Assembly: GCA_964200075.2 (NCBI GenBank)
Contig: CAXNAA020000005.1
Coordinates: 1-45,281, forward strand
Direction: 5' to 3'
DNA length: 45,281 nucleotides
DNA from: Sphacelaria rigidula
Lineage: Eukaryota
Shown: positions 1 through 45,281 of the stretch, in pieces
Position numbering within the stretch: position 1 is the first letter of the stretch
How the letters are laid out: every line of letters starts with the position of its first letter
Position numbers and translations under genes: made by a program
The notes under the pieces: model-generated
The model's database searches: none
Seen by the model: the letters and a program-made list of their open reading frames with translations, nothing else
What the model was told of the DNA's origin: nothing

Positions 1-127
1 ACGTAGTGAGAACGAACGAAGTGAATGAAGGGATAGGTTTAGGAACGGTAATTGAATATTATATGTGTGTAACATAGAATAATAGAAAGGTAAGAGAGTA
101 AACATAGCACGTAGTGAACGTAGTGAG
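1..127. repeat. 127-bp terminal direct repeat (circular-assembly overlap), copy 1
   Basis: Identical to 45155-45281. Confidence 0.97.
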
Positions 128-1219: not shown

Positions 1220-1914
1220 TTATATTTTTTCTATTACATCATTTACGATTTTCGATACCTCTACAACTGTCATCGGATCTATGTTTGGTATATTATCTTT
1301 CATATGGTTAATAAAAGACTGCATCACATGATCAGCATAATCGGTTTTAGCTAGCATTAATCGGTCTTCACTCAAAATCGTATTATTTATATTTTCAGGG
1401 AATGCCTTGCAAAATTTTTTTGTTAAATTTAATACGTCATATTTTATTTCTAAAATGGTGCGATATATCTCTTCCGGCGTCACATTTTCAATATTTAATA
1501 TTTCACTTTTATTTCCGTTCTCAACATTTAAATTTGTATTTTTATCTACCAAATTTGTATTGATCATTTGTCCCATCACAAAAGTGAATAAAAGTGAAAC
1601 TGAAATAAGAGCAAGTGCTTCGGTTCATGGAATATTATATATATAATCAAAAAGATAATCTGAAAAAGTTTGTTTTTTAGCAGTTTGAATTTTATTTAAT
1701 TCTGCCATTAAAATTTTAATTTGATTTTCTTGTTCTTTTAAAGCATTGAGCATTGCTCGATCGTTAAAAAATATTAAAAACAAGCTAGGCAAAAAAAGCC
1801 TATCAAAATGTATTGAACTTTCACCCAAAATGAATTAGTATTGATTTTACTGTTATCATTTCTTAGCGAGTTTTTATTTCTTGCCATATTTTTTCATTTG
1901 TATTGTTTTTTCAT
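1220..1914 (-). CDS. Orphan ORF, probable membrane protein; 5' part frameshifted or alternative start
   Basis: ORFs 1625-1828 and 1220-1579 fuse with TGA=Trp; an ATG frame from 1914/1887 joins only via a shift at the A7 run 1791-1797. Confidence 0.5.
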
Positions 1915-2073: not shown

Positions 2074-2157
2074 TTTTAGATGGGAATAGAACCCATATTT
2101 ATTCTTAAATGTAAATATGTAAAAATAAAAAAGCTATTTTAATTTTAGCATTTAAAA
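2074..2157 (-). ncRNA. tRNA-like t-element after rps11
   Basis: TGGG-TTCTATT-CCCA T-arm, GCTA/TAGC hairpin, no canonical anticodon arm. Confidence 0.5.
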
Positions 2158-2159
2158 TA

Positions 2160-3323
2160 TTATTTAAATACTCTCATTCTACGTCTTTTTTTTCTAACTT
2201 TTTTTGGTGCACGACAACCATTAAAAATCTTTTTTTCTACAACATTATATAAAATTTGTCTTCTTTTGAATTTATTTCTTAATAAACGAAGAACTTTTTT
2301 TCTTAATCTTCTTGGTGTATTAACGTTAATTATAATTCCTCCTTCTTTTTGTACAATTTCATATGGTTTTTTATTATTAACACTACCTTTTACAAAATTT
2401 CTTTTAGTTTGTTTTTTTGTAAAATTATTTCTTATGTTAAAATAAAATTTGTTTATGATTGATTCAAAAATATATCTCATTGTTTTTTTTGAAGCTTTGG
2501 TTTTATATTTTCCAGCAGAACAAGAATCAGTAGTTGAAATATTTTTGTTTATATCAGATAAATTACAAAAAACATTGTTTGGTTTTATAAGAATATTCAG
2601 TCTATGTTTAAAAATATTATGAGAATTAGGTATTAAAAATGCTCTAGATTTTTTAGTAACAAAACGTTTGCGATATAATAATTTTCTATTGCTTTTTTTT
2701 TGTCAACTCTTTATTCTTTTAATTTTTAAATTTGATTGTTTTTTTTCTTCCTCTTTTTGATTTAAATTTGTCATGGCATTAGCATTTTTATCATCTATAT
2801 TTTTTACAGAATCATTAGCTAATTTTTTAGATTTTTTAGTTCATTTAAGAAGAAGTGCTCTTTTAGAAAGATTTTCTTTAGTAAGAGTTGTTTTAATGTT
2901 TGCTTTTCTTATCAAAAATTGATTAATAAGAGCATTATTTTCAAAATCGTTGTCAGAATTAATATTTAAATTCTCATTTTTTTTAATAATATTTTTTAAT
3001 AATTTAATAAAAGTTGTCCTTTTTTGTTCTAAAATAGTATTATTGGTTAATAAATTTCTATTTTTTTCAGATTCTAATTTTAAAATACTATTAAAAAATT
3101 GTATTTTTTTCATGAAGAACATTGGTCTTTTTTTTCTTTTAAACTTTTTAAAATTTTTTCCTTTTTTTTTTAGAAAAGCTCTTTTTCTTTTAAAATTATT
3201 AAATTTTTTTTTATTTGCTTTTTTAGCATTATCTTTTCTCGCAGAATTCATTTTAGCAGAAGTTTTTTTAGCTATAATGTTGTCATTTTGAGTTGATATA
3301 TTTTTTTTTAATTTTTCAATCAT
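2160..3323 (-). CDS. rps11: Ribosomal protein S11 with long basic N-terminal extension (387 aa)
   Basis: One frame with TGA=Trp; NILIKPNNVFCNLSD, SAGKYKTKASKK and C-terminal FNGCRAPKKVRKKRR motifs; follows rps13. Confidence 0.85.
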
Positions 3324-3651: not shown

Positions 3652-3779
3652 ATATTATTATTTAAGTAATTCTTAGTTTCTTTATATACCTCGAATTGTA
3701 AAAATATTTAACAAAAATCAAGTAAATCCTTATAAAAAGACAAAAGCAATTACAATTTTAATTATAAAAAGAAAAATAT

Positions 3780-4571: not shown

Positions 4572-5111
4572 ATGGAAAATAAAAAAATAATTATACCAAA
4601 TAAAATATCTATTTCATTAGTAATAATTAAGAATATTAAATTTATAACAATAAAAAATGATGTTGAAACAAAATTTGTTTCTCTTCCATCTTTTATTCAG
4701 TTACAAAAAGCAGATAATATTTTAACATTAGTAAATAAAGAATTAACTATAGAGAAACTTTCGGCATATAATCAATTTGTAAATACTTTACAATTTGCAA
4801 TTAAAAATTTATCCACATCTTTTAATAAAAAAATATTTTTAAAAGGATTAGGTTTTCGTGCAAATATTCTTGAAGAGCTTGATATGGTTGAATTTAAAAT
4901 AGGATTTAGTCATTTGATTCAAATGAAAATACCTCAAGATATTACAATGAAAATCCGAAAAAGTTTTATTCATATTGAAGGAAAAGATAAAGTTTCTTTA
5001 GGAAATTTTGTAAATAAAATTATATACTTAAAATCTCCTGATTCTTATAAAGGAAAAGGGTTTTGATATAAGTATCAAAAAAAAACACTAAAAGTAGTTA
5101 AAAAAAAATAA
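4572..5111 (+). CDS. rpl6: Ribosomal protein L6
   Basis: LKGLGFRA, IGFSH, PDSYKGKG; reads through TGA to TAA, overlapping the next ATG (TAATG). Confidence 0.93.
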
Positions 5112-5713
5112 TGAGCAAACAACTAAGCACAATGTTAATCAAGCAATTAATTGATTTAGATTTTCCTTTTGTAAAAACTGAAAGAAAAGGGGAAATTTTA
5201 AATTCATCTGTATTGCGTATAAATTTAAAAGATAAAAATCAATTTCATATTTTAGACTTATTTAAATTAAATAGTAGTTTAAAACAATTTATCAGAATTT
5301 TATATTTATTAAAAAATCCAAAAGTTCCAACTGATTTTACTATATATATCTGATGTACAAACAAATATATTACAGAATTAATCGAACTTTTTCTTGTGGA
5401 ATATAAAATATCAAAATATTTTGTTATTTGTGATTATTTTCCATTAATAAGTTTAACTGAAACTAAAGATAAACAAAAATTCCTTTTTGTTTTAGGAGAT
5501 CCTTGAACAGAGAAATCATCACAAATGTTAGAATCTCGTGTTTTATATAATAAAATCTTTTTAGTAAGTAGTTTAAATTTTAAACAAGAACGTCCAAATT
5601 TAAACTTATATAAAATTCAAAATGATTTATCAGATTATAAAAAATTACTTGTTTTATTAATAATTATTGAAAGAATTATTGGTAATCCAAAAAATCATAA
5701 CTTAAAAAAATAG
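5111..5713 (+). CDS. rps2: Ribosomal protein S2 (divergent)
   Basis: Joined with TGA=Trp; HILDLFKLNSSLKQ resembles the S2 HIIDL motif; sits in the rps8-rpl6-rps2-rps4 order. Confidence 0.7.
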
Positions 5714-7823: not shown

Positions 7824-8025
7824 AATAAGCGGAGTTTGGGCTATTTTAAGAATTTAAAAATAAAAATTTAAGGTCGATTTTTATTTCAGAATGTAATTTA
7901 CATTTTTAATTATAAAAAGAGAAAATTTTAAAACAAATACAAAGAGGAAGAACTATTAAAAATATAGAAAAAGAACATTATTTGTTCGTCTATATGATAA
8001 GTATTCTCAAATAAAAATAAAAACT

Positions 8026-9015
8026 ATGTTCTTTTTACATTCAATGACTCAAAAAAAATTTTTAAATAAAGTTTTAGAAAAATTACTATATTTAAGTAGT
8101 TTAATTTCATCAATAAATCCAGAATCTGCGGGAACTCCAAAGACTTGAACTGCGTATTTATATAATGATATCTGATTAGGAATCTATAATGATCCTGTAA
8201 TTTATCCAGCTGTATTATTTTTTGGTACCGTTGGATTTTTTTTATTTCTTCAAGCAGTTAATTCAGGAGGAGGAGGTTCTGGAGGAGGTTTCGATAATTT
8301 TAATCTATCGGACAAATTATCTAGTGTTCCTGAAAATGTTACTATAATTAAGGAAACTAGTGCATCTTCTTTAATGTCTGACGCTGCTAATGTAATTAAT
8401 AATGTTATTACAACTCCAAAAGCAACTGAACAAGTATCGAGTGTTCTTAACGATGCGGTATCTGAGGTTGTGAGTAATGCAGAAAATATTGATACATTAA
8501 GTACTAGTATTTTAGAAACTGTGACTGAAGTTGCAGCAAATAATACTGGTATTTTAGAGAATTTTGCCACTGTAGATATACCTTCAGCTGGAAGTGTTTT
8601 TGTACTTGGTAGTATTTACAGTTTACTTACACCTGCCGTGAGTGCTGCGCTTCAAGCTTCACTGAGTGCTGTATCTACCACTCCAGTTCTTGAGTATGCT
8701 TTAGATCCTATGCCAAGTTCAAGTTTTATTATGGACCTGAGACGTAGTGGTCATTATGATCATGATTTTCTTAAAAATGTTAGTGTAACATTAAAGTCAT
8801 TAAGAATTGAGTATTTGATATTTGATATTAATCTTGAGATGGAATTAGTTCCAGGTCAATATTATTTTCCTTGAGATCTTAAATATTTTGAGGCCTTTAT
8901 AATAGGTATGTCTCCTAATCCTATAGATCCAGTGACAATTATATCAAGTCGAATAATGTTTCATTTACTAAGAAATCAAGGAGTAGTTGGTTTTATTATT
9001 AATCTCAACGAATAG
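8026..9015 (+). CDS. Orphan ORF329, predicted single-pass membrane protein
   Basis: 990-nt frame with TGA=Trp; hydrophobic segment, Gly linker, Ser/Thr/Val-rich stretch; paralogous to 33699-34421. Confidence 0.8.
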
Positions 9016-9084
9016 TTTTTATCTTTATTACAAGAATTTAATATTAAATATTAAATAACAACTGGGTTCGAATCCCATTAAAAA
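9016..9084 (+). ncRNA. tRNA-like t-element after ORF329
   Basis: TGGG-TTCGAAT-CCCA at 9063-9077; TTTTTA/TAAAAA acceptor-like pairing starting right after the stop. Confidence 0.55.
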
Positions 9085-9150
9085 TAACTCCCATGATTTC
9101 GGGTTTTACTACTTAATAACTAAAGTTGATAGAAAAAGATATTTTTATAA

Positions 9151-9470: not shown

Positions 9471-9552
9471 ATTATAATGGGAATTGAACCCAAAAACCTA
9501 AAATTAAATATTATCTAGGGTTTACAGCATATAAAATAATAAGCAATTATAT
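9471..9552 (-). ncRNA. tRNA-like t-element at the end of the rpl2 to orf184 block
   Basis: TGGG-TTCAATT-CCCA T-arm (9478-9492) plus an upstream AAACCCTAG/TTAGGTTT stem. Confidence 0.5.
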
Positions 9553-9667: not shown

Positions 9668-10222
9668 TTAATTGTCCTTATTATTTTTTTGTTTTATTAC
9701 AAATAAAGTATTACATATTGTATAATTAATATTTATTGAATTAAATATTTCATTATTTTTTAAAATTCATAAGTCATTATTATTTTTAGGCATTTTTAAA
9801 AAGAATGATTTCATTTGAACAAATCATAAAGAAGTTTTTTTCTTAACTGTTAAATTAACAGAAGTTGCAATTTGTGAATTCTTTTCAAATGTTTTTAAAT
9901 GTATTGAACCAATGAATTTATTATTATCAATAGAAGTATCGCTTTTTTGTAATTTATTTATTGGATAATTCTTATTATTTTTCGGAGATTTAAAATTAAA
10001 AATAGTATTTGGTATTTTAATTGTTTTATTTTTAAAAGTTATTTCTTTCTCTTTTTTTACTTTTAATAAATCTGGAAGACTTATTTCTTTTTTTGCATTA
10101 AAAAGAGTATTTTTTTCTTTTTTTAGTATTAAATTTGATTGAATTGTTTGATAATTTTGTGCATTTAATAAATCGATTATTAAAGAAGCATTTATTTGTT
10201 TTCTAGCTAAGTTTAAATTCAT
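9668..10222 (-). CDS. Orphan ORF184 (Lys/Asn-rich)
   Basis: Frame extends through two TGA codons to TAA at 9668; starts 3 nt after the upstream ORF. Confidence 0.65.
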
Positions 10223-10225
10223 ATA

Positions 10226-11263
10226 TTATTTTTTACAAAGAAATATCGGTTTTTTAAGACATGATTTATTAGTAAATTGAATTCTTCTTCTTTTTAAAAA
10301 TCTTCTTTTTTTTATAAATTTATGTCTTTTTACGGGAGTAGTATAGTTTAAATCTTTTATTTCTAAAGGTAAAAGGTTATTTTTATTAGAAGAATAAAAA
10401 CTTAAAAAGTTTAATTTAATATTTGTTAATTGTTCTTTTAAATTTTCTATTAAATTCTTATTTGAAATTAAAATATCTTTCATATTAGAAATTTGATTTT
10501 TTGATAAATTAATTAAATTTTCATCGACTAGTAAGGCTTTAGTGTTATTTTCAATAATAAAATTTTTGATCTTATTGAATTTATTATTTAATCTATTATT
10601 AGTTTTATTTAATTTTCTTAATTCATTTTTTATAGGAAGTACTTTTTTTCTAAAATTACTTTTTAATAATTTTTGTTCAGAACTTTCTACTTTCGATGAT
10701 AATTCATACTTTTTTTTAGCTTTTTTATATTCTTTTTTTGGTAAAAAACCAAGAATATTAGAAACTCTAATAATAAAACCGCCTATAGCTGGTCTTACAA
10801 AAGTAATTGGTAAATTATCATTTGTATTAATATATTCAATTAAATTCTTTAATGAGTCTTTAGTTTTTATAATATTACTTTTTGGAGTAGATATTAATGG
10901 AACTTTAATTCTAATTTTATCTCAAAATTTATGTCTTAAAATATACTTATTAAGTTTTACAGATGCACCGATTTTGTTATTAGGTTTTATTTTTTTAAAC
11001 TTTTTCTTTTTTGTTTCGGTTGCTTTTAACTTATTAGATTTTTTTTTATTTAATTTTTTAAACTTAAATTTTTTGTAAATCTTTTTTTGTTTACTTTTAA
11101 GAATAATATCAGAAATAGTAGAATTATCATCAATTACTTTAATTCTTTTTTCATCTTCTACGAAATCTCTTATAAAACCTTTATAATAAATTTCTTTATT
11201 AATTGCTTTTAGATTATGTAAATTGTTTTCTTTAAAATTTCAAATAAATGTTTTTTTTGTCAT
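10226..11263 (-). CDS. ORF345, putative divergent ribosomal protein S1
   Basis: Single frame with TGA=Trp, 4 nt after rpl16; contains S1-like ITFVRPAIGGFIIRVSNILGFLPKKE. Confidence 0.65.
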
Positions 11264-11695: not shown

Positions 11696-13171
11696 TTATT
11701 CTTTCTTTTTTGAAACTTTTGGTTCCTTAGTTATCTCTTTTTTTAATAACTTTTCATCTTTAGATTTAGATGATGCTTTTTTAACTATTTTATCTGCTTT
11801 TTTTACTTTAGTAGATTTAGAAGTTGCTTTCTTCTTTTTTGATTTAGTAACAATACTATTTGCTTTGTATTGTAAAATTACATTTTTAATTGCAAGATTT
11901 TTTGTTCCAACAAATTTTTTACTTTTTTTTAGCTTAATCGAAGTGTTTCTTGTAATAGAAGGACTTTTTTTTGGAATATAAAATTTTACATTATCTGCAT
12001 TTTCTTTAATTTCAATTAATTTACGTTTTAAAGCGGTAATTTTATTAATTGCTTTTAATTTTTTTACTTTATTCGCTTTAGTCATTCTTTTCTTCTTTTT
12101 TGCTAATAAAGGAACTTTCTCATTAGTTAAATCTATCTTTTTCTCCGCTTTTTTATTTTTTATTGCAGAAAAAAGCTTAGTATTTAATTTTTTTAAAAGT
12201 ATTTTAGTTTGTGGAAGAGATAACTTTTTATTTTGTTTTCAAGTTTTCTTTTTTAATTTTTTATTTTTACTATTATCTTTATCAATTTCTTTTTGAGTTT
12301 TAATATAATTTGCTCATAAAGAAAGTCCAAAACAACCATATAAAGTATTAATATGAATTTTACTTAAATCATTTTTTGAACATAAAGTTTGTATTCCAAT
12401 AGCACCTACAGAAAGTTTAAAAGAATTTGAACGTAATTTACCTTTGATTTTTCCATTTAGTAGTAATTTAATACCTTTTACTTTTGATCTTGGTAAACTA
12501 ATTACAACATTTAATACAGTTTTAATAAATGTAAAAAATTTACTATGTGATCTTTTAGGTAAAAAACGAAAAATAGTACCTATAATATTACAAAAAGTTT
12601 CAAGATTTATTTTTTTTGTAGCAAATAAAGAAGTTAATTTAATAAAATCATAAAATAAATTAAAACGTCTAGAAAAAAGAGGTTTTTTAAATTTTCTTAG
12701 TTCTTTATAAATAAGTAATTTTAAACCTAAAATTTCATGTTTGTTAATTAAATGAATTTTTACATTAACTAAATTACTTTTTAGCATTGTTTTTAAGACT
12801 TTAACAACAGTTTTATAGTTACCCTTTTTTTTTAAAATTGCTTTTTTTCTACCTTTATAAGTTCTTTTTAAAAAGTTACGTCTTCCTTTAGTTTGTTGTA
12901 AAGCAAGTTTTCTTTTTACTTGTTGAATATTTTTAACTTTTTTTTTGTATTTTGCAATTTTTTGAGTTTTGAAAAAAACATCTAATGCAACATTAGTATG
13001 TTCGTTAGATATTGTTGTTGTATGTGAAGTAATAATAACACCTTTTTTATCAAAACATTTTTTTAAAACATTGATAAAACTGGTAGTTTCTCACATTTGT
13101 TTTGCATTAAATGAAGTATTTAAATTTTCATTATTTTTTCTTAAAGTTAAAAGATTAGATTTTTGTCCCAT
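11696..13171 (-). CDS. rps3: Ribosomal protein S3 with ~200-aa Lys-rich C-terminal extension (491 aa)
   Basis: MGQKSNLLTLRK start, KGIKLLLNGKIKG, TLYGCFGLSLW; the frame continues to 11696. Confidence 0.9.
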
Positions 13172-19485: not shown

Positions 19486-20100
19486 ATGAATGTTAAAAAT
19501 TATACCATGTCATCATCAAATTATTTATTAAATTATGATTTAATTAATAAATATAATATGAAAAATGTTTACAAATTTCCAAAAGTAAAAACATTAAGAT
19601 TAAAATTATACTCTGAAGATCTAAAAAAAGGTTTCATTAACACCATATCTAAAAATGAACTAGAAATTATGTATAGTAGAGTTTACCTTATATTATACGT
19701 TTTATTAAGCTTTTTTCCAAAAATTACAGTAAATACCAAAAGAATTTTTAAAAAAAGAGGTTCTAATTTAGATGATGATAGTTTATCTTTTGAAGTAACT
19801 ATCAGAAACAAAAAATACATTAATGCCTTTTTATACAAACTATCCGTAGAAACCGCATTTAGAAAAAAAAACATAGACAACCTTGCTCTATCTAAAATAT
19901 CAACACAACAGAATAGTATTTTTAGTTTAAATACTAATATCCCTTTATCTCAATTTTCTGAGGTTCACGAATTTTTTGAATTATTTTATAATGATGTTAA
20001 TCTAGATCATTTTCCTTTACGTTCAAATATTATATATACTAATATGATACATAATGTTAAAGTACAAAATTTATTAAAACATTCTTCTTTTTTTGGATAA
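19486..20100 (+). CDS. rpl5: Ribosomal protein L5 (divergent)
   Basis: YDLINKYNMKNVYKFPKVKTL N-terminal pattern and FEVTIRNK, typical of mitochondrial L5. Confidence 0.8.
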   Translation: MNVKNYTMSSSNYLLNYDLINKYNMKNVYKFPKVKTLRLKLYSEDLKKGFINTISKNELEIMYSRVYLILYVLLSFFPKITVNTKRIFKKRGSNLDDDSLSFEVTIRNKKYINAFLYKLSVETAFRKKNIDNLALSKISTQQNSIFSLNTNIPLSQFSEVHEFFELFYNDVNLDHFPLRSNIIYTNMIHNVKVQNLLKHSSFFG

Positions 20101-20290: not shown

Positions 20291-20341
20291 TTTAAGAAAA
20301 AAGTTACAAATGTAATTATTAAAAGAAAAAACTAAAATTTA

Positions 20342-20610: not shown

Positions 20611-20683
20611 AGAAGGATAGCTCAATTGGTAGAGCACTGGTCTTCAAAACCATAGGCTGTGAGTTCGAGTCTCGCTCTTTCTG
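20611..20683 (+). tRNA. trnW: tRNA-Trp(UCA), reads UGA/UGG
   Basis: Loop CTTCAAA, G discriminator. Confidence 0.95.
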
Positions 20684-27200: not shown

Positions 27201-27246
27201 ATTATATTATTAAATATATTTATACCTTTTTAAAATGAATAAAAAA

Positions 27247-27310
27247 AATAGGTTTTATACATAGCATTAATCTTTATTTTATGTGTCCAGGTTCGATTCC
27301 TGGTTTTATT
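27247..27310 (+). ncRNA. tRNA-like t-element after cox1
   Basis: Perfect T-arm CCAGG-TTCGATT-CCTGG (27287-27303) with no D or anticodon arm. Confidence 0.55.
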
Positions 27311-27389
27311 CCTAATTGATATCTTTCCCGTATTTTATTCTTTTTGCTTTATATTTGAATAAAATTTTGTTGTTCTTTTGTTTACTATT

Positions 27390-27568
27390 TTTAAGCAATT
27401 AATCGCACACTTTTTTAAAATTGCATTTTTTACTATTTTTTATACTTTTTTTAATCTTTTTAAAAAAACCACAGTAGATTGCCGCTTTTTAAAAATAGAA
27501 AAAGGCGATTAATTGCTGCTTTAAGACTATGTGAAATTCATCAAGGGGGGTACCTTGGTGAACGAAAA
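27390..27568 (-). repeat. Dispersed element copy 3 (inverted copy of 710-890)
   Basis: TTCATCAAGG-GGGGTA-CCTTGGTGAA at 27537-27562; 27408-27450 is the reverse complement of ~829-871. Confidence 0.85.
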
Positions 27569-27903
27569 TAATCAAAATAATAGTATATTATATTATTAAC
27601 ATATATATAAATTGATATAATATAATTAGTTTCTTAACAGCATATTAAATATATTCGAATTAAGTGTATATATTAATTACGTTATTAACTATAATAGATA
27701 TATTTAATAATATTAGGATTCTATACACGACCTTTTTGTAACGAACTTATCTTTAGACGAATTTATTACATATGTATTATTTTGCTAATCTTTGCTGGAG
27801 CAATAGTGTTATAAATAATTATTGATAGTATCTAATATATATATCTTTAAGACTAATACTAAAAAGATATAAACTTATTTAAAAGGATTATAATATTAAT
27901 AGA

Positions 27904-28056
27904 GATTAATTGTAAAAATATATTATAATTCAAATTTTAATCATTTTATACAAAATTTAATATTTTAATAAAAGTCAACGATACATCCTGTGTTTTTAAA
28001 ATAAAAAACAGCAATCTATCGTCTATGTTTTTTTTATAAGGGGGTTACCTTGATGT
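27904..28056 (-). repeat. Dispersed element copy 4, left flank of ORF197
   Basis: 37-bp repeat 27904-27940, GCAATCTA at 28011, AAGG-GGGTTA-CCTT at 28038-28051. Confidence 0.75.
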
Positions 28057-28136
28057 GTAAACAAAAGAAAGAAGTAAAAGTTAAAAACACCAATAAAACG
28101 CTTTAAAACGAACAAATAAATTATTTATTTAAAATT

Positions 28137-28730
28137 ATGAAAATTATGTTTATCAACTTAATAATAAAAATAAAGATTACAAGAAACTTCCACACATCTG
28201 CTATACGTAATGCAGAAGATAAAACACAGGAAGAGACATATATGGAAAAGAAAAATCAAGAAATATATGAAAAGCTTCTTGATGAATTGGAACAAATGTC
28301 TTTATTTATCGAAGATAATGAATCTCTTAAAAAAAAAGTAAGCAACGACATTTCTCATAGCTTAAAAGGTGTAAGTATACAATTTGATGAGATGGAGCAA
28401 ATCATGCATTCAAATCTTTCACTTGAAGAAAAGCAAGATAGGCTCGAAAACTTAGAAACTTTACACTTTACTAAGGTGAATCGTGTTTCTCATGCTACTC
28501 CGAAACAATTTAAGACCTTATATGAGAATATAGAAAAATACTTTTACTTAAATTATAATGAGGAAAAAAAAACAACTAAAGAACAAAAAGATTTTCTTAT
28601 TATACTAAATCGTTATATATGTGTTATGAAAGAATTAAATTTAGATTTTTTTTCTTGTTTTATAATTACTTTATATCAAGCAATTTCAACTGCTTATATT
28701 GCTATTTATCGAGATCAATTTAGCGATTAA
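28137..28730 (+). CDS. Orphan ORF197, acidic/helical
   Basis: ATG-to-TAA frame, Glu/Lys-rich, no recognisable family. Confidence 0.7.
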   Translation: MKIMFINLIIKIKITRNFHTSAIRNAEDKTQEETYMEKKNQEIYEKLLDELEQMSLFIEDNESLKKKVSNDISHSLKGVSIQFDEMEQIMHSNLSLEEKQDRLENLETLHFTKVNRVSHATPKQFKTLYENIEKYFYLNYNEEKKTTKEQKDFLIILNRYICVMKELNLDFFSCFIITLYQAISTAYIAIYRDQFSD

Positions 28731-28884
28731 TTGCGAAAATATATTATAATTCAAATTTTAACTTTTTTACTCATTTTTTAATGTTTATAGAAAAAGGGGC
28801 AATCTACCCTTGTTTTATAAATAGTAAAACCCGCAATAAATGCTCATTTTTAATCTATTAAAATAAGAGTAAGGTAGGTACCTT
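28725..28884 (-). repeat. Dispersed element copy 5, right flank of ORF197
   Basis: 37-bp repeat 28725-28761, GCAATCTA 28799, GCAATAAA 28833, AAGG-TAGGTA-CCTT 28871-28884. Confidence 0.75.
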
Positions 28885-29099
28885 TGTAAAAAATTCTAAC
28901 TAAAATAAGAGGAGAAAAGAATCAACGTAAACTAAACAAAAAGGTAAAGAATAAAGAAAAGTATGTATAATATAATAAATATATTACTAGTATGGATCGT
29001 TTATTAATATAGTTCTTTTTGCTCAAAAATACCAACCATAGTATATAAAAGGATAAGAATACTAATAATATATTTTCTATTAATTTTACTAAAAGACTA

Positions 29100-29237
29100 A
29101 ATTTTATTTTTTACTATTTTTATATATTTTTTAACATTTAAACAAAAACCCGCGTATATACGCTATTTTTTAACATATTGAAACAGCGATAGATTGGGGC
29201 TTTTTGTTATTTTTATTTTTATCAAGGGGGTTACCTT
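29100..29237 (-). repeat. Dispersed element copy 6
   Basis: TAGATTGG at 29190, AAGG-GGGTTA-CCTT at 29224-29237; A/T tract resembles 27425-27460. Confidence 0.7.
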
Positions 29238-29278
29238 TTGTAATATTAAAGTGTTGTGTATTTATATATTTTTAAGTA

Positions 29279-31156: not shown

Positions 31157-31485
31157 AATCGGAAATAAAAAATTAAATCGAGTCAAAATACCTAAAATAA
31201 TTTTTAATTTCTTTTTTGATCATTGATATATTTGTTATAATTTTGATCATTTATATTATAACATCATTTTATTCTTTATATAATTACATTTGTAATCATT
31301 TTTTTGTTTTCCCTCAGATAACCTTGGGTTTTTAACAAACAAAAATAGTTTTAAATATTAATTTATTCTTTTTAGAAAATTTATATTTTATTCTTATATG
31401 TAATTTTTTCTTTATATAATTAAATTTGTAATAAAAAATCCAAATTAGCAGGATTAATCTTTGTTTTTAATATAAAAAAGGAAAA

Positions 31486-33516: not shown

Positions 33517-33580
33517 ATATAAAATCTAACATATTTTTTTTGTATTTAAACAAAATTTTTTATTTTTACTAGGATTTAAA

Positions 33581-33613
33581 TTAATTTTAAGGGCTTCGAA
33601 CCCTTAAAATTAA
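33581..33613 (-). ncRNA. 13-bp hairpin with T-loop (tRNA minihelix-like) between ORF240 and nad11
   Basis: TTAATTTTAAGGG-TTCGAAG-CCCTTAAAATTAA on the minus strand. Confidence 0.55.
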
Positions 33614-33698
33614 ATACCTGACATATTAAAAGATATTTAATTTGTATAACTTTATAAATAAAATTATACAACGACTTATAAAAGAAATAGAATGTATT

Positions 33699-34421
33699 TT
33701 ACATTCCACCTCATCCAGTTTTACCAACAACAACACAGAAAGTTTGTGCTGCATTAAAACATAGTGCAAAGAGATCTGCTGTAGAACTATCTGATATTAT
33801 ACCTACATTAATACTATTTTGTATAAACTCAACAGGCTTAGAAATACATAAATCACTACTACATATAAACCAACCAGAACCACTAATATCAACATTTGCA
33901 AACAATGCGTTTAAGCGATCTTCACCTAATGTAATGTGTGCATCTGCGGGTATACTACGTGTTAAAGCATCAAATTGCTCAAGAAATTTTTGTGTACTAA
34001 AAGGAGTAGGAATATCTTTAACAACAGCAATATTTTCAACAATAGGAAGACTACCATTACCAGGCATATTTTCACAAATGAGCCCATTTGAATTACCTCC
34101 TTGTCCATATCAAACATTGTTTCAAAATTTTTCTATTCCACCATTTTGTGCAATAATTCCTCCTACGCATACAATACCTAAACCTACACAAACAAAAGCT
34201 CCAACACGGTAAAAGGTTTCTGGATCATTATATACAGCGGCTGAACAATCATAAACATAATTACAATTATCAGCATACCATCCATATCAAGTTCTCGATG
34301 TTTGAATTTTAGTGGGATCTATTGAAGATATTAAAGTAGTAATAACAGGTAAAACACTCTTTAAATTAGTTTTAAATTTATTTGTTAAGTTGGGTACCCC
34401 TAAGTACTGGGTCTTTACCAT
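33699..34421 (-). CDS. Orphan ORF240, predicted membrane protein
   Basis: 723-nt frame with TGA=Trp; paralogous to 8026-9015; the ATG overlaps the cob 3' end by 44 nt. Confidence 0.8.
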
Positions 34422-43213: not shown

Positions 43214-43544
43214 GAAAAATAAAGAAATTTTTCTTTTTATAATAAGATTTATAAAAATTTTAGCTTTTTATTAAGGATAATCCAGCATATTGTATTTTTA
43301 TATATGAAAACAGTTTTGATTACACAAGAAATTACATTAAGATTAAAACAAAAAGAACAAAAAGATATAAAATCAATCCTTTATTAGTTAATTGAATGCT
43401 AATATTATATTCTAACTATACTTGTAACAAAATACTGAATTGAATAATACAAGTATAAAATAAACTTATTACATTATACTCGGATATACCGCTGTTTTTT
43501 AAATATTAAATTAATTTTTATATCTGCTTAAAAATAACTACAAT

Positions 43545-43722
43545 TTTACAGCAATCTACTGTGGCTTTTTTAAAAGTTTAAAAATTTAGCTTTTTTTTCA
43601 TTTTTTTTAATCTTTTTTAAAAAGCAGCAATCTAATGCGGTTTTTTAAAAGTACGAAGCAACGGTAGATTGCTGCTTTTGGACCCTTTGCATTTTGGGTA
43701 AGGTACCCCCCCTTGGTGAAAA
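43545..43722. repeat. Dispersed element copy 7
   Basis: GCAATCTA 43551 and 43627, TAGATTGC 43665, AAGG-TACCCCC-CCTTGGTGAA 43700-43720. Confidence 0.85.
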
Positions 43723-43794
43723 ATTTAAGATGTTTTTATAGCCTAAAAAAAATCACTAAAAAAAAGCAAAAATAAGCGTTTATTGCCAAGAAAT

Positions 43795-44280
43795 AAAAAA
43801 AGCAATTACAAATTTAATTAGATAAAGAATAAAATCTTAAAAAGCAAGCTTTGAATAAAATCAATTTTACATTTTATATAGATCAATCCTGATAAAATAG
43901 AAAACTGATTACAAATCAAAGTACATAAAGAAGAAAATGATATTAAAATTTATATAAATTTTCGATTAAAAATACGAAACAACGGATTATCTGCTGTTTT
44001 ATTAAATTTTAATTACAAATAGAGTTTATATAAAGAATGAAACCTTTCTTTTCAATATATTTGTTTGTTAAAAACTCTTTTATTAAGGGTAATTGCTAGA
44101 ATATCAAAAAAGCAATTACAAATAGAGTTATATAAAGAATAAAACCCTTTTAAAAAAGAGTAAAATCTTTTGAAAAAGAACTTTAAATAGTATTAAATTT
44201 ACGTTTTATATGGATTAATCCGGATAAAGTGAAAATTTGATTACGAATCAAGTTATATAATGAAGAAGATGATTATAATA
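43795..44280 (+). repeat. Degenerate ~150-bp direct repeats in the non-coding region
   Basis: AAAAAAGCAATTACAAAT at ~43796 and ~44106 with colinear similarity downstream; partial copy at 44011. Confidence 0.7.
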
Positions 44281-44329
44281 TTGTCTTTTTAAATCTTTAA
44301 AGTTAAAAATATTTTTCTGCATTTTTACA

Positions 44330-45281
44330 GAGTAAGAGCAAAGCAAGAGCAAAGCAATAGTCTTCGAGCAATGAAAGATGAGATAGTACAGGATAGTAAT
44401 GGAATAATGTGATTTGAATAGCGAGAAGACTTAGAACGTAGACTATACTACAAACTTATGGGCAACCACGAGGGAGAGTAACTTGGAATAGACTAGAACT
44501 GAAATGGAGGACTAGCAAACATGGAATTGAAGAATGAAATGGAATGTTGATAGGCATACATGTAAGGTATAGGCCATGGAAAGTGTAACGACTGATATGT
44601 AGCGAGTAGATCTGTAGACGTAACCGTAGTGTAACGGAGTTGTAGACGGAGACGTAGTATTCACTACGTACGAACGTGTAGTATGAACATAGTCTGAACG
44701 TAGTATGAACGTAAGTATGAAGCCTATATGAGGCGAAGGATGAATGAGAGGCGGCGATGAACTGAGTCTGAAACTATTAGACGAAGGATGAATGCGAAGC
44801 GAGGTGTAACGAGAGTCTGAGACTAGACGGTGGAGACGAGACTGGGAATCGGAGTGTAACGGAGAGGGACAGGGAGATGCAACCAATAGGCGAAAGAAGG
44901 AGTGAAAACGAAGATGAGAATGAAGACAAAGGCTAATAGATGAAGAGGAAGTGAAAGCGAAGGCGAACATGAAGACTGAGACGAATAGGCGAATACGGAG
45001 AGAATACGAAGTGAATACGAAGTGAGTACGTAGTGAATACGGAGACGGAGTCGAAAACGTAGTGTAACGGAGGTGTAGACGAAAGAGATACGTAATACTA
45101 TTACGAAGTATATGAATAATAGAAAGGTAAGAGAGTAAACATAGCACGTAGTGAACGTAGTGAGAACGAACGAAGTGAATGAAGGGATAGGTTTAGGAAC
45201 GGTAATTGAATATTATATGTGTGTAACATAGAATAATAGAAAGGTAAGAGAGTAAACATAGCACGTAGTGAACGTAGTGAG
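44330..45281 (+). repeat. Purine-skewed, GC-elevated microrepeat region ending in a 117-bp-period repeat
   Basis: GTGTAACGGAG x3, GTAGTATGAAC x2, several GAATACG; a 51-mer at 45114-45164 and 45231-45281. Confidence 0.8.

What the first reader, a model, noticed from the sequence alone, without database searches (positions are those of the whole stretch)
8026..9015. ORF329 and ORF240 are paralogous orphan membrane proteins hidden by TGA=Trp
Seen, after translating TGA as Trp: ORF329 reads LISSINPESAGTPKTW...IYNDP-[hydrophobic helix]-GGGGSGGG...VPENVTIIKE. ORF240 (33699-34421, minus) reads LISSIDPTKIQTSRTW...VYNDP-[hydrophobic helix]-GG..GQGGNSNG...IVENIAVVKD. The LISSIxPx4TxK/RTW block aligns without gaps and the motifs occur in the same order, while the C-terminal halves differ. 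Each is followed by a tRNA-like processing element. Inference: an expressed family with a conserved N-terminal anchor module and a variable cargo domain. I recognise no standard mitochondrial protein with this pattern.
Basis: partly seen in the sequence, partly recalled or inferred. Interest (0 to 1): 0.85.

Follow-up and report, generated by a model that had tools for sequence, protein, structure and literature searches.

The report
Paralogous lineage-specific mitochondrial membrane-protein genes
Two unassigned genes in a protist mitochondrial genome are real coding genes and old duplicates that share a membrane-anchored front end, and one has a relative in another organism, but their function is unknown and they match no described protein family.

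Summary
The window is a circular-mapping, AT-rich protist mitochondrial genome that reads TGA as Trp. ORF329 (8026-9015, +) and ORF240 (33699-34421, -) exist as described.

- **Real genes.** Both show the codon-position bias and codon usage of the 30 Pfam-assigned genes. Both are longer than chance ORFs.
- **Paralogy.** The N-terminal similarity is significant: BLASTP E 2e-6, 0 of 2000 shuffles, hhalign E 2e-6. They are reciprocal best hits among 648 six-frame ORFs. The signal lies mainly in the ~55 residues before one strong transmembrane helix. The C-terminal halves are not detectably related, and there is no DNA-level similarity, so the duplication is old.
- **Not strictly orphan.** An exhaustive HMMER search with ORF240 found one full-length homologue, P0004 (207 aa, 34% identity), from another assembly. 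It has the same start (MVK.QY.GV) and the same helix position.
- **No known family.** Pfam, PDB sequences, the Atlas and two AlphaFold runs (pLDDT 30-35) gave nothing.
- **Downstream elements.** Each gene is followed by a T-arm-like hairpin, but so are two other genes. Only the one after ORF329 resembles a cloverleaf, and it scores below threshold.

Verdict: new members of a known kind, lineage-specific mitochondrial membrane ORFs. Moderate interest.

The parts
8026..9015 (+). ORF329: 329-aa protein gene (table 4; 3 in-frame TGA=Trp; stop TAG)
   Evidence: Coding signature: GC1/GC2/GC3 0.43/0.37/0.14 and codon log-ratio 0.30 in frame, with the other five frames negative. Stop-to-stop length exceeds every ORF in 100+100 random sequences.
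8026..8355 (+). ORF329 N-terminal module (aa 1-110): basic amphipathic start, LISSINP...KTW, YNDP, helix, GGGGSGGG, VPENVTIIKE
   Evidence: Aligned to ORF240 aa 15-136.
8194..8256 (+). ORF329 predicted transmembrane helix (about aa 57-77)
   Evidence: Kyte-Doolittle 19-residue window peak 2.02 at aa 57-75.
7907..7920 (+). Core TAATTATAAAAAGA of a recurring oriented intergenic motif, 106 nt upstream of the ORF329 ATG; candidate promoter (inferred)
   Evidence: 10 core matches against 1.55 expected; the 25-nt form has 6 matches against 0.01 expected. Copies outside the control region point toward the downstream genes.
9015..9086 (+). Sub-threshold tRNA-like element abutting the ORF329 stop codon; T-arm GGGTTCGAATCCC at 9064-9076
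   Evidence: Rfam tRNA 17.6 bits against gathering score 29, E 0.86. Not called by ARAGORN. Motif scan.
33699..34421 (-). ORF240: 240-aa protein gene (table 4; 4 in-frame TGA, 2 TGG; stop TAA); its ATG lies 44 nt inside the 3' end of cob, in another frame
   Evidence: GC1/GC2/GC3 0.44/0.42/0.13 and codon log-ratio 0.26. The start is supported by P0004, which begins with the same MVK.QY.GV.
34014..34421 (-). ORF240 N-terminal module (aa 1-136)
   Evidence: Conserved in P0004 (38% identity over aa 1-114).
34149..34205 (-). ORF240 predicted transmembrane helix (aa 73-91)
   Evidence: Kyte-Doolittle peak 2.51. P0004 has its peak (2.23) at aa 70-88.
33579..33615 (-). Long palindromic hairpin with T-loop-like centre GGGTTCGAAGCCC (33591-33603), about 96 nt after the ORF240 stop and before nad11
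   Evidence: (spacer z-score -3.78, 0 of 200 shuffles fold as well). No tRNA match at E<=10.
1220..1828 (-). orf202: possible distant third member (unproven); single helix preceded by YLFDYIYNIP
   Evidence: Against ORF329: Smith-Waterman z 4.0, 4 of 2000 shuffles. Best non-family hhalign hit among 69 ORFs, but only E 0.0044 and probability 7.8%. Not similar to ORF240 or P0004. Weak coding signature.

Best explanation
ORF329 and ORF240 are genuine, translated-as-written (TGA=Trp) mitochondrial genes. They belong to a lineage-restricted protein family that arose by an old duplication inside the mitochondrial genome.

Shown:
- Both have the host genome's codon usage.
- They share a module of about 55-110 residues: a basic amphipathic start, L-I-S-S-I-x-P...T-x-(K/R)-T-W, Y-N-D-P, one strongly hydrophobic helix and a Gly-rich stretch.
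- Their C-terminal halves are unrelated.
- ORF240 has a full-length homologue in another organism.

Inferred:
- The products are single-pass inner-membrane proteins.
- The conserved pre-helix segment plus helix is the part that inserts into the membrane and docks to a partner.
- The acidic, variable C-terminal domains carry the specific activities.

The most likely role is a lineage-specific accessory or assembly subunit of a membrane complex (respiratory chain or ATP synthase). This is the usual fate of unassigned membrane ORFs in protist mitochondrial genomes. I rate that specific role at only about 0.25. The confidence below is for the statement that these are real, paralogous, lineage-specific membrane-protein genes.
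For: Coding:
- GC3 is 0.14 and 0.13 against GC1 of 0.43 and 0.44. The 30 assigned genes have GC3 of 0.05-0.15.
- In-frame codon log-ratio is 0.30 and 0.26. The assigned genes range from 0.13 to 0.76. All five other frames are negative.
- Chance ORFs of 240 codons or more appeared in 0 of 100 shuffles of the window and 1 of 100 random sequences of the ORFs' composition.

Paralogy: (tblastn E 1.7e-4).

Old duplication: the best blastn E between the two genes is 0.3. The conserved block has synonymous differences.

Conservation elsewhere (P0004):
- E 4.9e-7 against 1.84 billion representatives.
- BLASTP E 4e-11.
- Smith-Waterman z 23.8, 0 of 2000 shuffles.
- 34% identity over 250 alignment columns, reaching into the C-terminal half.
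- ORF329 against P0004: 4 of 2000 shuffles reach the score.

One strong hydrophobic window sits at the equivalent position in all three proteins: 2.02, 2.51 and 2.23.

The composition is not that of ribosomal proteins: K+R 4.8% in ORF329 and 5.9% in ORF240.

Precedent:
- Eustigmatophyte orfX/Y/Z, with orfZ having two predicted transmembrane regions and no homologues even by HHpred (PMC4824035, passages read).
- Six and four unmatched ORFs in two bicosoecid mitochondrial genomes (PMC6723347, section 3.6 read).
Against: - No transcript or peptide evidence was obtained.
- Only one outside homologue exists, for ORF240 only. It comes from a 3.8-kb contig whose DNA I could not fetch, so dN/dS and synteny are unknown.
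- BLASTP of ORF329 against P0004 is not significant (E 7.8 for the homologous segment).
- Flanking charges do not fix the topology: there are 0-1 K/R within 15 residues on either side of the helix.
- Both AlphaFold models are uninformative (pLDDT 34.8 and 30.2). 'Domain' and 'single-pass' therefore rest on hydropathy alone.
- ORF329 has a second hydrophobic window at aa 191-209 (1.79).
- The proposed role has no direct support.
Confidence: 0.72

Rival explanations
1. They are extremely diverged copies of a standard mitochondrion-encoded membrane protein that is otherwise missing from this genome. Candidates are a Tat component (tatA/tatB-like), ATP synthase subunit b (atp4/ymf39), or another small single-helix subunit, duplicated and extended.
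For: No tatC or tatA was recognised among the ORFs scanned. Fast-evolving genes are common here: the rps11-like orf387, a 491-aa rps3, and several K-rich ORFs without Pfam hits. A single helix plus a soluble tail is the architecture of subunit b and of TatA/B (recalled).
Against: No Pfam match at E<=10 for ORF329 or ORF240, nor at E<=5 for P0004. No PDB sequence match by single sequence or by profile. The helix starts at residue 57-73, after a conserved segment of about 55 residues, not at the N-terminus as in TatA. That paper gives stramenopile TatA as 52-55 residues with the helix close to the N-terminus (PMC4824035). These proteins are 207-329 aa.
Confidence: 0.13
2. They are non-essential or selfish ORFs, such as remnants of a mobile element or chimeric ORFs like those behind plant cytoplasmic male sterility. 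They would be kept open by chance or by weak selection, with no role in the organelle.
For: There is no known function and a very narrow distribution. The C-termini are variable. A possible decaying third copy, orf202, has a weaker coding signature.
Against: Codon usage is fully adapted to the genome. ORF240 is conserved end to end at 34% identity in another organism, with the same start and helix. No flanking repeats or plasmid-type polymerase genes appeared in the repeat scan or the ORF annotation. Long open frames are very unlikely by chance.
Confidence: 0.1
3. The two ORFs are not related. The shared motifs are chance or composition-driven similarity between two hydrophobic, Gly-rich proteins.
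For: The helix-plus-linker segment alone is only marginal (71 of 2000 shuffles). The C-terminal halves are not similar (269 of 2000).
Against: The pre-helix segment alone gives z 8.3, with 0 of 2000 shuffles reaching the score. They are reciprocal best hits among 648 ORFs. hhalign E is 2.1e-6. Scores against 17 other membrane proteins of the window are 20-58 against 89 for the pair.
Confidence: 0.03

Closest known systems
Lineage-specific conserved mitochondrial ORFs of eustigmatophytes (orfX, orfY, orfZ; PMC4824035, passages read)
   Same: Both are mitochondrion-encoded and conserved only within a narrow lineage. Neither has a homologue, even by sensitive profile tools. orfZ is predicted to be an inner-membrane protein from its transmembrane regions. 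In both cases the origin is open: de novo, transferred, or drastically diverged.
   Different: No sequence relation was tested or claimed. orfZ has two predicted helices; these have one strong helix. The eustigmatophyte ORFs are not reported, in the passages I read, as paralogues of each other. Here two copies with different C-termini sit in one genome.
Unmatched hypothetical ORFs of bicosoecid mitochondrial genomes (Cafileria marina six, Cafeteria four; PMC6723347, section 3.6 read)
   Same: The genome type is similar: about 43 kb, AT-rich, table 4 with a UGA-reading tRNA. The gene set covers respiratory complexes, ATP synthase and ribosomal proteins only. Several ORFs have no BLAST orthologue.
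   Different: I could not compare sequences, as none of those genomes was available to the tools. This window has an unsplit 676-aa nad11 with the molybdopterin domain. Whether the organism is a bicosoecid is unknown.
TatA/TatB and ATP synthase subunit b (single-helix, mitochondrion-encoded membrane proteins)
   Same: One membrane helix followed by a soluble, partly helical tail. All are encoded in some protist mitochondrial genomes (recalled).
   Different: No Pfam or PDB match. A conserved segment of about 55 residues precedes the helix. The proteins are much longer than TatA.
tRNA-like 't-elements' and tRNA punctuation as mRNA 3' processing signals in mitochondria (recalled)
   Same: A T-arm-like hairpin (GGGTTCGAAnCCC) lies 49 and about 96 nt after the two stop codons. 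The one after ORF329 can be drawn as a weak cloverleaf that starts at the stop codon.
   Different: Below the Rfam threshold (17.6 against 29 bits) and not called by ARAGORN. The ORF240 element is a plain long hairpin. The motif also follows orf387 and orf184. Processing was not tested.

Membership tests
Lineage-specific unassigned mitochondrial ORFs (real genes without a known family) | Lies in a mitochondrial genome and carries that genome's coding signature | tested here: met
   (gene content and rRNAs). (GC3 0.13-0.14; codon log-ratio 0.26-0.30, within the range of the assigned genes)..
Lineage-specific unassigned mitochondrial ORFs (real genes without a known family) | No match to any curated family or solved structure | tested here: met
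   Pfam at E<=10: only noise for ORF329 (DUF4634 0.067, Prominin 0.19) and none for ORF240. Pfam at E<=5: none for P0004. PDB sequences: ORF240 and its profile only, best E 0.83. ORF329 was not searched against PDB.
Lineage-specific unassigned mitochondrial ORFs (real genes without a known family) | Conserved in at least one related organism | tested here: inconclusive
   Met for ORF240 (P0004). Not shown for ORF329. Its only outside search was word-seeded, and the same kind of search missed P0004 for ORF240.
Paralogous pair (common origin of ORF329 and ORF240) | Sequence similarity beyond composition, with each the other's best match in the genome | tested here: met
TatA/TatB (Pfam MttA_Hcf106) | Short protein with the helix at the extreme N-terminus followed by an amphipathic helix; profile match | tested here: not met
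   No Pfam hit. The helix is at aa 57-75 and 73-91. Lengths are 329 and 240 aa.
ATP synthase subunit b / atp4 (ymf39) | Profile match to the subunit b families | tested here: not met
   No Pfam hit at E<=10. No PDB hit.
tRNA-like 3' processing element | Cloverleaf that scores as tRNA-like, and evidence of cleavage there | tested here: inconclusive
   ORF329 element: 17.6 bits, below the gathering score of 29. ORF240 element: no tRNA match.
Integral membrane protein | Hydrophobic helix of about 19 or more residues | tested here: met
   Kyte-Doolittle 19-residue peaks of 2.02, 2.51 and 2.23 at equivalent positions in ORF329, ORF240 and P0004. No dedicated topology predictor was available.

The most novel reading that the evidence does not exclude
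A mitochondrion-encoded modular protein family. One conserved N-terminal insertion-and-docking module (pre-helix segment plus helix plus Gly linker) has been duplicated inside the organelle genome and joined to unrelated C-terminal domains. This gives two, or possibly three with orf202, different membrane-tethered proteins. ORF329 would be expressed from its own promoter-like motif and trimmed at a tRNA-like element. If so, domain shuffling and neofunctionalisation are creating new organelle-encoded subunits in a free-living protist lineage.
Probability: 0.15. Interest if true: 0.6.

Novelty: new member of a known kind. Interest (0 to 1): 0.35.

Why it matters
Mitochondrial genomes almost never gain genes, and duplicated protein genes that then diverge are rare in them. 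A verified pair of paralogous, membrane-anchored, lineage-specific genes with one outside orthologue is a small but clean case for two questions: how organelle genomes acquire new proteins, and what the many unassigned ORFs of protist mitochondria do.

In practice, both ORFs are invisible or fragmented unless TGA is read as Trp, so they are easily lost in automated annotation. The finding changes no general picture unless the proteins are located in a defined complex.

Tried and rejected
- **Word-seeded homologue searches.** ORF329 and ORF240 gave none at E<=0.01. The ORF240+P0004 profile found only P0004 itself. This search type missed P0004 for ORF240, so its blanks are weak.
- **Exhaustive HMMER search with ORF240.** 2 hits. 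P0003 (2981 aa, 26 repeat stretches, bacterial-looking repeat protein) was rejected as repeat-summed noise.
- **Related loci.** ORF240 or its profile against viral, metagenome and prokaryote-genome contigs gave no confirmed relative.
- **Cytochrome b as bait.**
  - It returned 75 IMG/VR loci and 80 prokaryote-collection loci at 52-65% identity.
  - The named ones are almost all alphaproteobacterial, so none is a close relative of this genome.
  - None holds a family member.
  - The one E 0.012 hit, in L066, was read and rejected.
- **Structure.** AlphaFold on ORF240 alone gave pLDDT 34.8, and with P0004 gave 30.2. No fold search was run because the models are meaningless.
- **ESM Atlas.** With P0004, recognition was 1846 (below 2300), the best hits were unnamed clusters at 0.90, and there was no lead.
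- **No whole genome held**. No earlier notes. One look-up failed.
- **AT-rich motif 5' of the hairpins.** Not above chance: 22 matches against 15 expected.
- **Topology from charges.** Undecided.
- **Paper searches.** Searches for the ORF names, the genome length and the stramenopile gene set did not find this genome in print. The Ancyromonas genome (PMC10749196, abstract and outline read) differs: 41,889 bp, with sdh2 and sdh3. Supplements were not seen.
- **Complex prediction.** Not used, as there is no candidate partner.

Full report
**What the window is**

- The 45,281-base window is a mitochondrial genome. Its first 127 bases repeat exactly at its end (1-127 = 45155-45281), so it maps as a circle of about 45.15 kb.
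- GC content is 20-33%.
- It has bacterial-type large and small rRNA genes and 23 tRNA genes. One tRNA has anticodon UCA (20611-20683).
- Read with table 4, 30 ORFs match Pfam families:
  - nad1-7, nad4L, nad9, an unsplit 676-aa nad11
  - cob, cox1-3, atp6, atp8, atp9
  - rpl2, rpl6, rpl14, rpl16
  - rps3, rps4, rps7, rps8, rps10, rps12, rps13, rps14, rps19
- These 30 genes hold 114 in-frame TGA and 2 TGG. Pfam matches run straight across the TGA codons; COX1, for example, covers residues 23-469 with 13 TGA. TGA=Trp is therefore secure.
- The gene order rps8-rpl6-(orf200)-rps4 and the missing trnT recall stramenopiles. That is recalled knowledge, not a test. I could not name the organism.

**The observation**

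- The block LISSINPESAGTPKTW / LISSIDPTKIQTSRTW aligns without gaps.
- The later landmarks follow in the same order: YNDP, a hydrophobic helix, a Gly-rich stretch, then (V/I)-(P/V)-EN-(V/I)...K-(E/D).

**Are they genes?**

- GC by codon position is 0.43/0.37/0.14 for ORF329 and 0.44/0.42/0.13 for ORF240. The assigned genes have GC3 of 0.05-0.15.
- The per-codon log-ratio against a table built from the 30 assigned genes is 0.30 and 0.26 in frame. The assigned genes range from 0.13 to 0.76. All five other frames are negative.
- orf211 (44512-45147) has no such signature. orf202 and orf197 have only a weak one.
- Open frames of 240 codons or more arose in 0 of 100 shuffles of the window and in 1 of 100 random 45-kb sequences with the ORFs' composition. 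The largest were 228 and 241 codons. ORF329 is open for 351 codons.

**Are they paralogues?**

| Test | Result |
|---|---|
| BLASTP | E 2e-6, 35 of 124 identical, 26 gap positions |
| Smith-Waterman, full length | 89 against 34.7 +/- 5.5; 0 of 2000 shuffles |
| phmmer among 648 six-frame ORFs | each is the other's best hit, E 5.5e-4 and 2e-4 |
| tblastn | E 1.7e-4 |
| hhalign, ORF240+P0004 profile vs ORF329 | probability 89%, E 2.1e-6, 63 columns |

By segment:

| Segment | z | Shuffles reaching the score |
|---|---|---|
| Pre-helix ~55-67 residues | 8.3 | 0 of 2000 |
| Helix plus linker | 2.2 | 71 of 2000 |
| Short post-Gly block | 3.7 | 13 of 2000 |
| C-terminal halves | 1.2 | 269 of 2000 |

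- There is no DNA-level similarity (best blastn E 0.3).
- The conserved block differs at synonymous sites.
- The duplication is therefore old, and the likeness is kept at the protein level.

**Relatives elsewhere**

- Word-seeded searches found nothing for either protein.
- The one exhaustive HMMER job, run with ORF240, gave two hits among 1.84 billion representatives.
- P0003 is a 2981-aa repeat protein matched in 26 stretches. I reject it as noise.
- P0004 (207 aa) comes from a single 3,777-bp assembled contig with no name. It is a true homologue:
  - E 4.9e-7 for the whole library.
  - BLASTP E 4e-11.
  - Smith-Waterman z 23.8, 0 of 2000 shuffles.
  - 34% identity over 250 alignment columns, including the C-terminal half.
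  - tblastn to the ORF240 locus E 1.1e-12.
- P0004 begins MVKNQYPGV against MVKTQYLGV in ORF240. This supports the ATG at 34421, which lies 44 nt inside the end of cob in another frame.
- P0004 is ORF240's orthologue, not ORF329's. BLASTP to ORF329 is not significant. Shuffle tests still link them: 4 of 2000 full length and 3 of 2000 for the N-terminal parts.
- Further scans with ORF240 or the two-sequence profile found nothing.
- Cytochrome b used as bait returned 155 loci at 52-65% identity. The named ones are almost all alphaproteobacterial, and none contains a family member. No close relative of this genome was within reach.
- ORF329 itself never had an exhaustive search. Its blank is therefore weak.

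**What the proteins look like**

- All three proteins have one strong hydrophobic window at the equivalent place: 57-75, 73-91 and 70-88, with Kyte-Doolittle 2.02, 2.51 and 2.23.
- ORF329 has a second, weaker window at 191-209 (1.79).
- The parts before the helix are roughly neutral. The parts after it are acidic: K+R against D+E of 11/27, 7/14 and 4/8.
- The 15 residues flanking the helix carry almost no positive charge, so the orientation is undecided.
- The composition is unlike the Lys-rich ribosomal proteins of this genome.
- No Pfam family, PDB sequence or Atlas cluster gives a lead.
- The two AlphaFold models are unusable, with pLDDT 34.8 and 30.2.

**Surroundings**

- GGGTTCRANNCCC occurs 12 times within one mismatch, against 0.11 expected. 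Eight of the sites lie in annotated tRNA genes.
- The other four all lie in spacers just downstream of a protein gene on the same strand:

| Upstream gene | Element | Strand |
|---|---|---|
| ORF329 | 9064-9076 | + |
| ORF240 | 33591-33603 | - |
| orf184 | 9479-9491 | - |
| rps11-like orf387 | 2082-2094 | - |

- Only the ORF329 element gives a cloverleaf-like Rfam tRNA match. It spans 9015-9086 and starts at the stop codon, at 17.6 bits against a threshold of 29.
- The ORF240 element is a long perfect hairpin (spacer z -3.78) with no tRNA match.
- 'tRNA-like processing element' is therefore a fair lead, but it is neither specific to the pair nor demonstrated.
- Separately, the 25-nt motif ATTACAAATTTAATTATAWAAAGAA occurs 6 times against 0.01 expected.
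- Four of those copies point toward the next genes on their strand. The other two lie in the control region. The motif's core lies 106 nt upstream of ORF329 (7907-7920). I read it as a candidate promoter, by inference only.

**How it most likely works**

- Shown: two real paralogous genes, with a conserved N-terminal module that includes one hydrophobic helix, divergent C-termini, and an outside orthologue for one of them.
- Inferred: they are single-pass inner-membrane proteins. The conserved front end inserts into the membrane and docks, and the variable acidic tail does the specific job.
- The most likely role is a lineage-specific accessory or assembly subunit of a respiratory or ATP synthase complex. 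I put that at about 0.25.
- Rivals: a drastically diverged standard gene (0.13), a non-functional or selfish ORF (0.10), and chance similarity (0.03).

**Comparison with what is known**

- The closest described things are other lineage-specific mitochondrial ORFs:
  - Eustigmatophyte orfX/Y/Z. OrfZ is predicted to be membrane-bound and has no homologue even by HHpred (PMC4824035, passages read).
  - The unmatched ORFs of bicosoecid genomes (PMC6723347, section 3.6 read).
- In both respects these two genes are the same sort of thing.
- What differs here is that two copies with different C-termini coexist in one genome.
- Paper searches for the ORF names, the genome length and the gene set found no description of this genome or family. 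Supplements were closed and were not seen.

**Verdict**

Expression is untested, and 'orphan' is now qualified.
- This is a new member of a known kind, of moderate interest.

Noticed in passing
window 1-127 and 45155-45281; also 77-127, 45114-45164, 45231-45281: The window's ends are identical over 127 nt, and a 51-nt unit recurs at 117-nt spacing. The genome therefore maps as a circle of about 45.15 kb, or it ends in a short tandem repeat.
   Followed up: partly
window 43214-45281 and 1-1219: About 3.3 kb of non-coding DNA spans the junction. It includes a 43%-GC island (44512-45147, 'orf211', with no coding signature) full of short tandem repeats (44679-45084). This is probably the control region.
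   Followed up: no
window 3749-3773, 20303-20327, 43805-43829, 44115-44139 (+); 31272-31296, 31408-31432 (-); core at 7907-7920 (+) and 43232-43245 (-): The 25-nt motif ATTACAAATTTAATTATAWAAAGAA occurs 6 times against 0.01 expected. Outside the control region it points toward the downstream tRNA/gene clusters on each strand. This makes it a candidate mitochondrial promoter.
   Followed up: partly
window 2082-2094 (-) and 9479-9491 (-): Two more T-arm-like hairpins lie outside tRNA genes, downstream of the rps11-like orf387 and of orf184. They may be tRNA remnants or 3' processing signals.
   Followed up: partly
window 1220-1828 (-), orf202: An unassigned ORF with one strong helix (aa 71-89) preceded by YLFDYIYNIP. 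It shows weak similarity to ORF329 only (4 of 2000 shuffles; hhalign E 0.0044, probability 7.8%) and a weak coding signature (GC3 0.22). It may be a decaying or distant third family member.
   Followed up: partly
window 27201-29278, orf197 at 28137-28730 (+): A 2.1-kb spacer lies between cox1 and trnS/rns. It holds a 197-aa charged ORF with a weak coding signature and no Pfam match. The spacer shares inverted repeats with the 700-950 region (35 nt at 100%, 138 nt at 80%) and with 43486-43687.
   Followed up: no
window 2160-3323 (-), 5111-5713 (+), 9668-11263 (-), 11696-13171 (-), 19486-20100 (+): These are very diverged or extended ribosomal-protein-like genes. orf387 ends like rps11, and orf204 begins like rpl5 (both motifs recalled). 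orf200 sits where rps2 is expected. orf345 and orf184 are Lys-rich ORFs after rpl16. rps3 is 491 aa. None except rps3 has a Pfam hit.
   Followed up: partly
whole window: No tatC or tatA was recognised among the ORFs of 60 aa or more that were scanned. nad11 is unsplit and keeps the molybdopterin domain. PMC6723347 states that most stramenopiles have a split nad11.
   Followed up: no
loci L001-L155: The window's cytochrome b is 52-65% identical to the cytochrome b of many alphaproteobacterial MAG contigs and of IMG/VR 'viral' contigs. Cytochrome b therefore cannot serve as bait for relatives of this mitochondrion in these collections.
   Followed up: yes
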